From the UHGV virus genome UHGV-0262927: DNA of 24,255 nucleotides; one strand, given 5' to 3'. This document shows, piece by piece, positions 2,070 to 4,198 of this stretch. Under the pieces are notes generated by a model. It worked only from the letters and a program-made list of their open reading frames with translations, was not told the DNA's origin and searched no databases. The stretch's first letter is position 1. Every line of letters starts with the position of its first letter. A program made the translations under genes and the position numbers. Origin of the DNA: a virus.

Positions 2070-2735
2070 TTAAAAACCAACTCTTAAATCGGGATAATTT
2101 GCTGTTAGGAAACCATCCCCCAAGTAATGCCAACGCCAGAAAATTGAAAATGGATGTTCAGTCTTCAACATTGCCTCCAGCATTTCCTCGGCATCTCTCT
2201 TTCTAGAGTTACCTTTACTGGGATCTTTGAGTGTCATCCTAGCCTCAATAAATCTTGAATAATAAAAAAACATCTGTTCGATGAGACTTTCTCTACTTAT
2301 TTTTCTAAGACCAGTATTCTTCAAGTTATAGCACTCATTTAATAGACCCACAGTGCTGACTATGCTTAAAGTTGGTGGATTTACATTTGGAAGAATAACG
2401 ACATCATCATCGGGCATTGACGGCATCTTACAAATTATCTGGTTGAAGATATTAATAGATAAGTCGGTACAATCTAGAATATTTTTATGTCTATTACCTT
2501 TTATCCCATTGCATCTACTGCATGAATAAAATAAATTATCCCAACTGTACTTTAAATTGTCATTACCTTCATGTGGGATGAGATGCTCCACTTCAGCATC
2601 TTGAACTTCATTTCGCTCACACAAATAACATTTTTCGTGAAATAATGGTTTCAGAATTTCAGTAACTTCTGCATCATTATAACGATTCCGGGAAATACAG
2701 TCCGGGGCTGGATAAGTTCTCGCAACATTGAACAT
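2070..2735 (-). CDS. ptuB: HNH endonuclease, Septu PtuB-like (221 aa)
   Basis: Motifs CYLC ... EVEHLIPH ... N ... CSRCN (zinc-finger HNH); start codon 3 nt after the ATPase stop; AAGGAG Shine-Dalgarno 9 nt upstream of the ATG. Confidence 0.65.
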   Translation of the reverse strand: MFNVARTYPAPDCISRNRYNDAEVTEILKPLFHEKCYLCERNEVQDAEVEHLIPHEGNDNLKYSWDNLFYSCSRCNGIKGNRHKNILDCTDLSINIFNQIICKMPSMPDDDVVILPNVNPPTLSIVSTVGLLNECYNLKNTGLRKISRESLIEQMFFYYSRFIEARMTLKDPSKGNSRKRDAEEMLEAMLKTEHPFSIFWRWHYLGDGFLTANYPDLRVGF

Positions 2736-2738
2736 TTA

Positions 2739-3989
2739 TCATTCTCCTTCAGTTGCATCTTTCGCATCTAAAAGAGCATTCCTACCCATTAATAAAAATG
2801 TTCTTGATCTCATATCTAATTGATTTTCATATGGTTGAATGCTATTTACAACCTCTTGTAATTTATCCGTATCAATAATATCATCATTTATTAACAATGC
2901 TAATTTATCTAATTGCTTATTAAGCAGGTCTGATTGAGTATCGACACCAAGTAAACCTTTGACAATTGCCTCATAGGAATACATTGATAGATCTTCAAGT
3001 TGTTCATTCGTGCTTAGATCATAAATTATCGCATCATTCACAGATTGAACAACAAAAGGAGAATGAGTTGTGACAATGAATTGGATATTGGGGAAGGCAC
3101 TTACAAAAAATGAGAAAATTTTCCGTTGTAAAGAAACATGCAAATGAGCATCAATTTCATCAATAAATACAACCCCCGATAACTCATCAGATGTGATACC
3201 TTTAAGTTCAACTTTCATCAATAAGTCAGCATATATACTTAAAATAGACTGATAGCCTGATGAAAGTTGATTAAATCTATAAGGAGATTTGTTATCCTGC
3301 AAAATATAAAATGTTTGCTCCTCCGCATCATAATTAAGCTTTAATGAATCATCCTCAAATAAATACCGAAATTGTTTTTGTAAAAAATAAAACCAAGAAT
3401 CTACCTTATCCCCTTTAACTTTATCATTCTCTCTAGCAATTAAATGACTCCCATAGTTATAAAACGAAACCAAATAACGTTCAAATTTATTGCTTGTATC
3501 CTGAGATAAACTAACTGAAATCTCCTCATCCTTTAAAGTTTTTAAACTGTCAATAGTTCCTGAATGAGATATGTTATTTTCTCTTACAGCGCCGAAATAG
3601 CGTAATAAAGACTTTCTCTCATTGAAATCGATACAGTATTTATTTAAATCAGCTAGTTCAATGCGTATATCTCTCATTTTTTTTAACTGTTTTTCATAAT
3701 CAGCTATTTCCTGTTTCCAACTGAAATAATTTCTATCCGTCGGAGGTGTATGTTGCATCCAATTTTGTCTGTTTGATATTTCTTGTTTTATTTGATCATA
3801 TGTTTTATATTCATACTGTTCTATTTGAGCAGACACCTGCTCATATAGTAGTTTTAAAAACCTAGTTTTTCCACATCCATTCCCCCCTGTAATTATGACA
3901 TTTTTACCATCAACATTTATATTTATGTTCTTATTTGTATCAGGAAGTAACACATGTATATGTTTTATTACATTGCTTTTATTGAGCAT
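2739..3989 (-). CDS. ptuA: ABC/AAA-type ATPase, Septu PtuA-like (416 aa from ATG 3989; ORF track gives TTG 4004, 421 aa)
   Basis: Walker A GGNGCGKT, ABC-signature-like LSSGYQ, Walker B VVFIDEIDAHLH, H-loop VTTHSP; tightly coupled to the downstream HNH gene. Confidence 0.65.
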   Translation of the reverse strand: MLNKSNVIKHIHVLLPDTNKNININVDGKNVIITGGNGCGKTRFLKLLYEQVSAQIEQYEYKTYDQIKQEISNRQNWMQHTPPTDRNYFSWKQEIADYEKQLKKMRDIRIELADLNKYCIDFNERKSLLRYFGAVRENNISHSGTIDSLKTLKDEEISVSLSQDTSNKFERYLVSFYNYGSHLIARENDKVKGDKVDSWFYFLQKQFRYLFEDDSLKLNYDAEEQTFYILQDNKSPYRFNQLSSGYQSILSIYADLLMKVELKGITSDELSGVVFIDEIDAHLHVSLQRKIFSFFVSAFPNIQFIVTTHSPFVVQSVNDAIIYDLSTNEQLEDLSMYSYEAIVKGLLGVDTQSDLLNKQLDKLALLINDDIIDTDKLQEVVNSIQPYENQLDMRSRTFLLMGRNALLDAKDATEGE

Positions 3990-4198
3990 AATTTTTAATC
4001 TCAACGTTGATATATTAGATCATTTTAACACTTTAATCACCAGATTAAAACCAATATTATTTGATAATAATATATACAATAATTATAAGATTCAACACCT
4101 CTAATCCATTTGCAGAGTTATTAATTTTTATTTACCCATTCTGAAAAATCATAATTAATAAAATATAAAAATAATTTTATTCCCCCGTATATTCAAAC

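What the first reader, a model, noticed from the sequence alone, without database searches (positions are those of the whole stretch)
2070..4004. Intact Septu-like defence operon (ABC-ATPase plus HNH nuclease) in an AT-rich island
The 416/421-aa protein has Walker A, ABC signature, Walker B and H-loop motifs; the 221-aa protein has a zinc-finger HNH motif. The two genes are separated by only 3 nt and the second has its own strong Shine-Dalgarno sequence. This matches the PtuA/PtuB architecture of Septu. No reverse transcriptase is present, so it is not the retron-linked variant. It is the only clearly intact multi-gene unit in the left island, while neighbouring genes appear decayed.
Basis: partly seen in the sequence, partly recalled or inferred. 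Interest (0 to 1): 0.6.

Follow-up and report, generated by a model that had tools for sequence, protein, structure and literature searches.

The report
Septu phage-defence gene pair, confirmed
The two genes are an intact type I Septu anti-phage system, an ATPase and its partner DNA/RNA-cutting enzyme, carried as cargo on a known mobilisable E. coli genomic island; it is a well-supported but ordinary member of a known family.

Summary
On the minus strand, ptuA (3989..2739, 416 aa; 421 aa from the TTG at 4004) and ptuB (2735..2070, 221 aa) lie 3 nt apart, with a GAAGGAGAA Shine-Dalgarno sequence in between.

Five tests agree that this is a type I Septu system:
- **Profiles:** full-length PADLOC hits to PtuA1 (E 9e-147) and PtuB1 (E 1e-85).
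- **Motifs:** all catalytic motifs are invariant across homologues.
- **Folds:** AlphaFold models match only solved PtuA and PtuB chains.
- **Synteny:** 32 of 32 distant loci keep the same gene pair, with no conserved third gene.
- **Selection:** about three times more synonymous than non-synonymous codon changes between alleles.

No reverse transcriptase, retron RNA or Toprim domain is present.

It is a short subfamily, found in Enterobacteriaceae, Vibrio and Aeromonas. It shares only 14-19% identity with the solved PtuA/PtuB structures. Catalytic-residue numbering indicates that the E. coli Septu I systems tested against phages also belong elsewhere. Trigger and target (tRNA-Tyr or DNA) are therefore inferred, not shown.

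The host element is the known serU island (ROD21/EARL-related), here followed by a lambdoid prophage. Septu-specific DNA is about 1992-4201, set between copies of an unannotated hairpin-rich repeat.

Verdict: new member of a known kind, low interest.

The parts
2739..3989 (-). ptuA: Septu ABC/SMC-type ATPase, 416 aa (an alternative TTG start at 4004 gives 421 aa)
   Evidence: ORF. PADLOC PtuA1 model PDLC00268, E 8.8e-147, covering residues 10-417 of the protein and positions 2-409 of the 411-position model. Pfam AAA_21 and AAA_15. Walker A, LSSG signature, Walker B and H-loop are invariant in 38 homologues. The top 50 Foldseek PDB hits of the AF2 model are all PtuA chains. RefSeq WP_000932962.1, annotated as 'AAA family ATPase'.
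2070..2735 (-). ptuB: Septu HNH nuclease, 221 aa, with an N-terminal CxxC...H...N...CxxC-N zinc-finger HNH domain and a helical C-terminal domain
   Evidence: ORF. PADLOC PtuB1 model PDLC00331, E 1.3e-85, full length. Pfam HNH. C36, C39, H51, N67, C72, C75 and N76 are invariant. AF2 model pLDDT 96.2. The nine significant PDB hits are all PtuB chains, TM 0.47-0.61. RefSeq WP_000483520.1.
2742..2750 (-). Shine-Dalgarno sequence GAAGGAGAA for ptuB, inside the 3' end of ptuA; TGA-TAA-ATG junction with a 3-nt spacer
   Evidence: Read directly from the sequence.
4067..4095 (-). Sigma-70-like promoter candidate (TTGAAT-17-TATTAT) about 80 nt upstream of the ptuA ATG, inside the Septu-specific DNA
   Evidence: Consensus scan. 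Such matches are not above chance in this AT-rich DNA, so this is a candidate only.
1992..4201 (.). Septu-specific DNA, the cargo module: ptuAB plus about 80 bp on the 3' side and about 210 bp on the 5' side
   Evidence: Septu-less islands L003 and L004 are collinear with window 951-1991 and then diverge. Septu-less islands L005 and L006 resume collinearity at window 4202.
1462..1749 (.). Copy 1 of a hairpin-rich non-coding repeat, downstream of ptuB. It holds minus-strand terminator-like hairpins at 1726-1690 (followed by a U-run) and at 1646-1632
   Evidence: Repeat families D1, D2 and D4. Terminator scan. RNA fold z = -4.3.
4156..4321 (.). Partial copy of the same repeat, upstream of ptuA
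   Evidence: Family D1, 69% identity to copy 1. Window 4202-4320 is 86.6% identical to the corresponding part of copy 1 (window 1508-1626).
4657..4943 (.). Copy 2 of the repeat, in its usual position upstream of the repL iterons
   Evidence: About 84% identical to copy 1. Present in 759 of 5426 complete E. coli genomes.
1..11072 (.). Right-hand part of the serU island, a ROD21/EARL-related integrative mobilisable island that carries the Septu module
   Evidence: 99.97% identical to E. coli A13 chromosome 2685419-2696490. The full island there has an integrase, PilV, a pilin, TraD, a MobQ relaxase, RepL, an AlpA-type HTH protein and DUF6387, and abuts tRNA-Ser. Island family as described in PMC7074111 and PMC6035254.
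11011..11072 (-). The 3' 62 nt of tRNA-Ser (serU), a partial att copy at the island/prophage junction
   Evidence: The alignment to A13 ends inside the annotated tRNA-Ser (L001 29112-29201). ARAGORN finds no complete tRNA.

Best explanation
This is a complete, functional type I Septu anti-phage system.

**Shown here**
- The two genes form one co-transcribed, translationally linked pair on the minus strand.
- PtuA is an ABC/SMC-type ATPase with every nucleotide-binding motif intact.
- PtuB is a zinc-finger HNH (beta-beta-alpha-Me) nuclease with a helical C-terminal domain.
- The pair is conserved as a two-gene unit across phyla and is under purifying selection.
- It is cargo on the serU mobilisable island.

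**Inferred from characterised Septu and retron PtuAB systems**
- PtuA oligomerises into a scaffold.
- Pairs of PtuA C-terminal helices clamp the helical domain of PtuB.
- The nuclease is held inactive in uninfected cells. In the solved E. coli Septu this depends on ATP.
- Phage infection releases the nuclease activity.
- The nuclease then cuts a host or phage nucleic acid. In Septu Ec-B88 and retron-Eco7 the target is the tRNA-Tyr variable loop. In vitro, the solved Septu also nicks supercoiled DNA.
- The outcome is growth arrest, that is abortive infection, and loss of phage yield.

The trigger and the substrate for this particular short subfamily are unknown.
For: - **Profiles:** PADLOC PtuA1 and PtuB1 full-length hits, E 8.8e-147 and 1.3e-85. 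Pfam AAA_21 and AAA_15 plus HNH, all above their gathering scores.
- **Motifs:** invariant catalytic residues, with the same spacing as residues shown by mutagenesis to be essential in tested E. coli Septu. In PtuA, D277/E278/H282 correspond to D316/E317/H321. In PtuB, H51/N67 correspond to H75/N91.
- **Folds:** the PtuB model (pLDDT 96) matches only PtuB chains, and the top 50 matches of the PtuA model (pLDDT 80) are all PtuA chains.
- **Interface elements:** the models contain the expected three C-terminal PtuA helices (354-414) and the PtuB helical domain (123-218). These are the elements that form the PtuA-PtuB interface in solved complexes (PMC12819146).
- **Synteny:** 32 of 32 loci from other species with a full-length PtuA relative (28-53% identity) have a PtuB relative directly downstream. 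No third gene is conserved.
- **Selection:** against the 95% allele, ptuA has 30 synonymous and 11 non-synonymous codon changes, and ptuB has 43 and 14. Both ORFs are intact in all three alleles examined.
- **Mechanism literature:** PMC13096335, PMC12819146, bioRxiv 10.1101/2022.08.21.504612.
Against: - No experiment exists for this subfamily. The held literature never names these proteins.
- Structure-aligned identity to the solved PtuA and PtuB chains is only 14-19%. By sequence alone, PtuB finds no PDB entry. Trigger, ATP control and substrate may therefore differ.
- The signature motif reads LSSGYQ with an invariant Tyr246. Retron PtuA has Gln at that position, and the solved Septu has Leu there and lacks ATPase activity.
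- Expression is not shown. The promoter match is no better than chance. The module is 30% GC and so a likely H-NS target (my inference).
- The system is rare: 14 of 5426 complete E. coli genomes.
Confidence: 0.85

Rival explanations
1. The pair acts mainly for the island rather than against phage. It would work as an addiction or exclusion module that stabilises the serU island or attacks competing mobile elements such as incoming plasmids or the adjacent prophage, using the same ATPase-gated nuclease.
For: Within E. coli the module is found only inside serU/EARL-type mobilisable islands, never on plasmids or phages. It sits directly upstream of the island's repL replication region. PtuAB complexes nick supercoiled plasmid DNA in vitro (PMC12819146).
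Against: Every tested Septu protects against phage. In other species the pair occurs in varied chromosomal contexts with no conserved island genes. Most defence systems ride on mobile elements, so the location does not discriminate between the two readings.
Confidence: 0.07
2. An intact-looking but silent or recently inactivated relic: xenogeneically silenced AT-rich cargo with no current function in this host.
For: 30% GC in a host of about 51% GC (the host figure is general knowledge). No above-chance promoter. One neighbouring gene is a pseudogene. This island variant lacks the H-NS paralogue that relatives carry.
Against: Synonymous codon changes outnumber non-synonymous ones by about 3 to 1 between alleles, and all catalytic residues are intact. 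The ORFs are intact in alleles at 100%, 95% and 88% identity.
Confidence: 0.05
3. An orphaned effector module of a type I-A retron (Ec78/Ec83-like) that has lost its reverse transcriptase and ncRNA.
For: By sequence, the best PDB hits for PtuA are retron Ec83 and Ec78 PtuA. The weak NCBIfam hits are to the retron PtuA and PtuB models.
Against: The NCBIfam retron equivalogs score far below their cut-offs, 97.9 against 500 bits and 25.7 against 150 bits. PtuA is 416 aa against 542-552 aa for retron PtuA. That leaves too few residues for the N-terminal extension and helical flap that bind the reverse transcriptase and msDNA in retron PtuA; this is my inference from the length, since the elements were not mapped here. 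No reverse transcriptase is annotated in the island and there is no Rfam hit. None of the 32 related loci has a conserved third gene.
Confidence: 0.02
4. A different ATPase-nuclease defence family, such as OLD, Gabija, PARIS or AbiL, mistaken for Septu.
For: ABC-type AAA_15 and AAA_21 ATPases are shared by these families.
Against: There is no Toprim domain. The nuclease is a separate HNH protein. The top 12 PADLOC hits are all PtuA1 models, and the one non-PtuA entry among the 25 listed (ATPase_I-A, 98 bits) scores far below the 488-bit top hit. The fold matches are exclusively PtuA and PtuB.
Confidence: 0.01

Closest known systems
Stand-alone type I Septu (PtuA/PtuB): E. coli Septu solved as 8EE4, 8EEA and 8SUX; Septu Ec-B88; originally described in Bacillus (Doron et al. 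2018, from my own knowledge)
   Same: Two-gene ptuA-ptuB operon with an ABC-type ATPase and an HNH nuclease. The catalytic-residue spacing is the same and so are the folds. There is no reverse transcriptase. The system is carried on mobile DNA.
   Different: PtuA is shorter (416 aa against 465 aa). Structure-aligned identity to 8EEA is only 17% for PtuA and 14% for PtuB. By sequence, PtuB finds no PDB entry. The signature motif is LSSGY, where the solved Septu has Leu at the position after Gly. Trigger and target are untested.
Type I-A retron effector PtuAB (retron Ec78/Eco7 and Ec83)
   Same: Homologous ATPase and HNH proteins. These give the best PDB fold matches for PtuB (TM 0.53-0.61) and the best sequence-level PDB matches for PtuA.
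   Different: No reverse transcriptase, ncRNA or msDNA is present. PtuA is 126-136 aa shorter than retron PtuA, which leaves too few residues for the retron-specific N-terminal extension and helical flap; this is inferred from length and was not mapped here. The NCBIfam equivalog cut-offs are not reached.
OLD-family and Gabija (GajA) ATPase-nucleases
   Same: An ABC-type ATPase gating a nuclease in phage defence (PMC12819146).
   Different: In those families the nuclease is a Toprim domain fused to the ATPase. Here it is a separate HNH protein, and no Toprim domain was detected.
serU island and ROD21-like (EARL) mobilisable genomic islands of Enterobacteriaceae
   Same: Integration at tRNA-Ser, about 22 kb in size, and a backbone with an integrase, an AlpA-type regulator, an ~840-bp DUF6387 gene, TraD, a MOBQ relaxase and pilin genes.
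   Different: This variant carries Septu. It lacks the H-NS paralogue Hfp that is typical of the family. In the window it is followed by a lambdoid prophage integrated at the same tRNA.

Membership tests
Septu type I (PtuA/PtuB) | PtuA: ABC/SMC-type ATPase (AAA_15/AAA_21) with Walker A, signature, Walker B/D-loop and H-loop motifs | tested here: met
   Pfam AAA_21 at 63.9 bits and AAA_15 at 56.1 bits, both above cut-off. The motifs are present and invariant in 38 homologues.
Septu type I (PtuA/PtuB) | PtuB: HNH nuclease encoded as a separate protein | tested here: met
   Pfam HNH at 31.2 bits against a cut-off of 21.4. CxxC...H51...N67...CxxC-N76 is invariant in 47 homologues.
Septu type I (PtuA/PtuB) | Match to the family's own detection profiles (PADLOC PtuA1 and PtuB1) | tested here: met
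   PDLC00268 at E 8.8e-147 and PDLC00331 at E 1.3e-85, both full length. DefenseFinder itself was not available.
Septu type I (PtuA/PtuB) | Adjacent, co-oriented ptuA then ptuB, conserved as a pair | tested here: met
   3-nt spacer in the window. 32 of 32 related loci in other species keep PtuB directly downstream.
Septu type I (PtuA/PtuB) | Folds of PtuA and PtuB as in the solved Septu complex | tested here: met
   Foldseek against the PDB. For PtuB, the nine significant hits are all PtuB chains, including 8EEA_G. For PtuA, the top 50 hits are all PtuA chains, including 8EEA, 8EE4 and 8SUX. TM-scores are moderate (0.45-0.6), as expected for flexible multi-domain proteins at about 15% identity.
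Septu type I (PtuA/PtuB) | PtuA oligomer that binds PtuB through the PtuA C-terminal helices and the PtuB helical domain | tested here: inconclusive
   The monomer models contain both elements. PtuA residues 333-349 are invariant yet modelled with low confidence, which fits an interface. No complex prediction or experiment was possible.
Septu type I (PtuA/PtuB) | Protection against phage that depends on both the ATPase and the HNH active sites | not testable with these tools
   This needs plaque assays. It has been shown only for other subfamilies.
Type I-A retron (Ec78/Ec83) effector module | Adjacent reverse transcriptase and msr/msd ncRNA | tested here: not met
   No reverse transcriptase is annotated in the island. 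No Rfam hit at the gathering or permissive thresholds. No conserved third gene in 32 related loci.
Type I-A retron (Ec78/Ec83) effector module | NCBIfam equivalog scores for retron PtuA (NF041760) and PtuB (NF041761) | tested here: not met
   97.9 bits against a cut-off of 500, and 25.7 bits against a cut-off of 150.
OLD / Gabija | Toprim nuclease domain fused to the ABC ATPase | tested here: not met
   There is no Toprim hit in Pfam at E up to 0.1. Among the 25 best PADLOC hits, 24 are PtuA models; the one exception is ATPase_I-A at 98 bits.
serU island / EARL-related mobilisable island (host element) | Integration at a tRNA 3' end with an integrase, an AlpA-type regulator plus an ~840-bp unknown gene, TraD and a MOBQ relaxase, and no type IV secretion system | tested here: met
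   Annotation of the 99.97%-identical A13 island. Family description in PMC6035254 and PMC7074111. Excision and transfer were not tested.

The most novel reading that the evidence does not exclude
This short PtuA/PtuB subfamily shares only 14-19% identity with every solved PtuAB and has an invariant Tyr in the ABC signature. It might sense a different phage cue and cut a different substrate from the tRNA-Tyr or supercoiled-DNA targets of the studied systems. Separately, the hairpin-rich ~285-bp repeat that brackets the module is present in 759 E. coli genomes and has never been annotated. It might be a dedicated cargo-capture or insulator element of serU/EARL islands.
Probability: 0.2. Interest if true: 0.45.

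Novelty: new member of a known kind. Interest (0 to 1): 0.2.

Why it matters
The finding adds little that is new. Standard tools such as PADLOC already detect this locus as Septu type I.

Its modest value is threefold:
- It documents a compact PtuAB subfamily (416 aa plus 221 aa) that is widespread in Enterobacteriaceae, Vibrio and Aeromonas. This subfamily has no solved structure and, as far as the held literature shows, no phage assay. It would make a useful comparison point for the unresolved question of whether Septu targets tRNA or DNA.
- It shows Septu as exchangeable cargo of the serU/ROD21-like island family. Relatives of this island carry TIR plus macro-domain genes, SMODS plus SLATT genes, a NACHT NTPase or a restriction enzyme at other slots.
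- It defines the cargo boundaries (about 1992-4201) and an unannotated structured repeat that flanks them.

Tried and rejected
- **Phage or plasmid origin of the module:** there is no match in 50,697 phage records. The two plasmid-collection records that matched the module query are not real plasmid copies: one is a mislabelled 4.8-Mb chromosome, and the other is a 365-bp match to flanking non-coding DNA.
- **Retron link:** rejected.
- **A conserved third gene:** ORFs within 4 kb of the pair in 32 loci were clustered, and nothing was shared beyond five related Acinetobacter loci.
- **Simple cassette with target-site duplication:** rejected. The flanking repeats are only about 84% identical, and Septu-less islands already carry 1-3 copies. 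The structure is a mosaic produced by recombination among islands.
- **Other defence genes in the window's island part or beyond the prophage tail fibre:** the PADLOC scan of 10 ORFs found only a marginal Csa3-like hit on RepL (E 6e-4), which I take to be a generic winged-helix similarity.
- **Sequence-level PDB search for PtuB:** found nothing. A fold search was needed.
- **Literature search by protein accession:** nothing.
- **Search for a tested Vibrio member:** a literature search (Septu, Vibrio, plaque) turned up no title or abstract pointing to a test of this subfamily; the papers themselves were not opened.
- **Promoter scan:** not informative in this AT-rich DNA, with 15 sites found against 21.9 expected.
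Full report
**Observation**

- One runs 4004..2739: 421 aa from a TTG, or 416 aa from the ATG at 3989.
- The other runs 2735..2070: 221 aa.

RefSeq annotation of identical DNA uses the 416-aa form, and most homologues are 409-416 aa. I therefore take 3989 as the start.

The junction reads GAAGGAGAA-TGA-TAA-ATG. The ptuA stop is followed by 3 nt and then the ptuB start. An AGGAG core lies 8 nt upstream of that start.

The region is AT-rich: 29-37% GC across 1-9500, against 52-62% in the right half of the window.

**Identity of the proteins**

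- *PADLOC.* Both proteins get full-length, very strong hits: PtuA1 model PDLC00268 at E 8.8e-147 and PtuB1 model PDLC00331 at E 1.3e-85.
- *Pfam.* AAA_21 and AAA_15 for the ATPase and HNH for the partner, all above their gathering scores, with no Toprim domain.
- *NCBIfam.* The retron-specific PtuA and PtuB equivalogs are hit only weakly, at 97.9 bits against a cut-off of 500 and 25.7 bits against 150.
- *PtuA conservation.* In 38 homologues, the Walker A (G35-T42), LSSG signature (242-245), Walker B/D-loop (D277, E278, H282) and H-loop (H309) residues are invariant.
- *PtuB conservation.* In 47 homologues, C36, C39, H51, N67, C72, C75 and N76 are invariant.
- *Residue spacing.* The spacing equals that of residues proven essential in tested E. 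coli Septu: D316/E317/H321 in PtuA, and H75 and N91 in PtuB.

**Fold-level test**

By sequence, PtuA reaches solved PtuA chains only over its C-terminal ATPase half (E 1e-12 to 1e-16). PtuB reaches nothing.

The AlphaFold models settle the question.
- The PtuB model (pLDDT 96.2) has nine significant PDB matches. All are PtuB chains, from retron Ec78/Eco7 and from the E. coli Septu complex 8EEA. They cover the full length, with TM 0.47-0.61 at 14-19% identity.
- The PtuA model (pLDDT 80.4) has as its top 50 matches only PtuA chains: 8EEA, 8EE4, 8SUX and the retron Ec78/Ec83 structures.
- The models contain three C-terminal PtuA helices (354-414) and a helical PtuB C-terminal domain (123-218). 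These are the elements that form the PtuA-PtuB interface in solved complexes (PMC12819146).
- PtuA residues 333-349 are invariant yet poorly modelled in the monomer. I read this as a probable interface; that is an inference.

**Is the pair the whole system, and is it alive?**

- The PtuA homologue search returned 2,195 proteins at E <= 1e-10 (a broad PtuA-like set). The closest relatives are 86-100% identical in E. coli, Salmonella and Citrobacter, then 50-62% in Vibrio, Photobacterium, Aeromonas and Pseudoalteromonas.
- In a scan of one genome per species, all 32 loci with a full-length PtuA relative (28-53% identity) have a full-length PtuB relative directly downstream. They include Lachnospiraceae, Bacteroidota and a spirochaete.
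- Clustering the flanking ORFs finds no conserved third gene.
- No tRNA and no Rfam family, retron RNAs included, is detected.
- No reverse transcriptase is annotated in the whole island.
- Against the 95%-identical allele of strain STEC1575, ptuA has 30 synonymous and 11 non-synonymous codon changes, and ptuB has 43 and 14. That implies dN/dS of roughly 0.1 by my rough site count.
- The ORFs are also intact in an 88% allele.

**Context**

- *The island.* Window 1-11072 is 99.97% identical to a chromosomal island of E. coli A13. The full island encodes an integrase, PilV, a type IV pilin, TraD, a MobQ relaxase, RepL, DUF4756, an AlpA-type HTH protein and DUF6387. It ends at tRNA-Ser, between zinT and mtfA. 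This is the published serU island, a ~22.5 kb relative of the ROD21-like (EARL) mobilisable islands (PMC7074111 and PMC6035254).
- *The prophage junction.* In the window the alignment stops inside the tRNA. Only its 3' 62 nt are present (11011-11072), which explains why ARAGORN finds nothing. A lambdoid prophage tail module follows: tape measure, M, L, K, I, J, Lom and side tail fibre. The same island-prophage junction occurs in other strains (L003, 96.7% identical).
- *Frequency.* The Septu DNA occurs in 14 of 5426 complete E. coli genomes and always on the chromosome. It is absent from the phage collection and from real plasmids.

**Cargo boundaries**

- Septu-less islands L003 and L004 are collinear with window 951-1991.
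- Septu-less islands L005 and L006 resume collinearity at window 4202.
- The Septu-specific DNA is therefore about 1992-4201.

It lies between copies of a ~285-bp non-coding repeat: 1462-1749, a partial copy at 4156-4321, and 4657-4943.
- The repeat occurs in 759 of 5426 E. coli genomes and is never annotated.
- It is present in 1-3 copies in Septu-less islands.
- It folds into several strong hairpins (z = -4.3). These include minus-strand terminator-like hairpins that could end the ptuAB transcript.
- A few compensatory changes preserve the stems, but nine related copies are too few for a firm conclusion.

Related islands carry other defence-type genes at other slots:
- a TIR protein and a macro-domain protein (L003);
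- SMODS plus SLATT (L004);
- a NACHT NTPase (L006);
- a restriction endonuclease (L087).

This remark is largely unsupported. In the part of the identical A13 island covered by the window, only one gene is annotated as a pseudogene (window 6036-6827, internal stop). RepL, DUF4756, the small regulators and DUF6387 are intact.

**Mechanism**

*Shown here:* an intact, selected, co-translated ATPase-HNH pair of the Septu family.

*Inferred from characterised relatives:*
- PtuA oligomers hold PtuB inactive, and infection releases the nuclease.
- The solved stand-alone Septu forms an inflammasome-like hexamer that nicks DNA and is inhibited by ATP. It is reported to be sensitised by a phage tail fibre (PMC12819146).

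At 14-19% identity, and with Tyr246 at the signature position where those systems have Gln or Leu, I cannot say which of these details applies to this subfamily.

**Verdict**

The finding is real and correctly interpreted, but ordinary. It is a new, untested member of a known defence family, on a known island family. Interest is 0.2. The only mildly novel threads are the uncharacterised short subfamily and the unannotated structured repeat that flanks the cargo.

Noticed in passing
window 1462-1749, 4156-4321 (partial) and 4657-4943: An unannotated ~285-bp hairpin-rich repeat brackets the Septu genes. It is present in 759 of 5426 complete E. coli genomes, always on the chromosome, at 1-6 places per genome. 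It contains twin palindromes (CAGCnAAGTGATTGTT-N3-AACAATCACGAAnnGCTG). The RNA fold has z = -4.3, and a few compensatory changes preserve the stems. Its function is unknown: terminator or insulator, protein-binding site, or recombination handle.
   Followed up: partly
window 5067-5155: Four tandem 21-23-bp palindromic iterons (TCCTATGTTCGAACATAGCAA) lie just upstream of the island's repL gene (5277-6011). One more diverged copy sits at 1470-1490, inside repeat copy 1. They are probably the RepL operator or origin.
   Followed up: no
window 11011-11072 (minus strand): Only the 3' 62 nt of tRNA-Ser (serU) are present, from the anticodon loop to CCA. This marks the junction between the serU island and a lambdoid prophage. 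The two elements are integrated in tandem at the same tRNA, and other E. coli strains share the same junction (L003).
   Followed up: partly
window 7393-8435: This island variant has different DNA where its relatives (L002-L005) encode the H-NS paralogue Hfp after the DUF4756 gene. No H-NS family gene is annotated in the identical A13 island. This may matter for silencing of the 30%-GC cargo.
   Followed up: partly
window 6036-6827: The gene downstream of repL is split by an internal stop into ORFs of 87 aa and 100 aa. It is intact (263 aa) in strains EC19 and STS63-1-E. It is the only pseudogene annotated in the part of the island covered by the window.
   Followed up: partly
L003 70-1552; L004 11125-13008; L006 11966-13936; L087 6466-7335: Related serU/EARL-type islands carry other defence-like cargo at other slots: a TIR protein plus a macro-domain protein, SMODS plus SLATT, a NACHT NTPase, and a restriction endonuclease. 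The island family therefore acts as a carrier of variable defence genes.
   Followed up: no
window 1750-2069: The 320 bp downstream of ptuB is more conserved between alleles (95-96%) than ptuB itself (90%). Positions 1750-1991 are backbone DNA also found in Septu-less islands. This is possibly the promoter region of the two small minus-strand genes at 953-1222 and 466-870, neither of which has a family match.
   Followed up: partly
PtuA residues 333-349 (window ~2943-2993, minus strand): This stretch is invariant across 38 homologues, yet it is modelled with pLDDT below 50 in the monomer. That pattern fits a segment that becomes ordered only in the PtuA oligomer or the PtuA-PtuB interface.
   Followed up: no
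L024, L025, L027, L030 (Acinetobacter loci), directly upstream of ptuA: A ~965-aa ORF lies immediately upstream of the Septu pair in several Acinetobacter species. It may reflect shared synteny or an associated gene. It was not examined.
   Followed up: no
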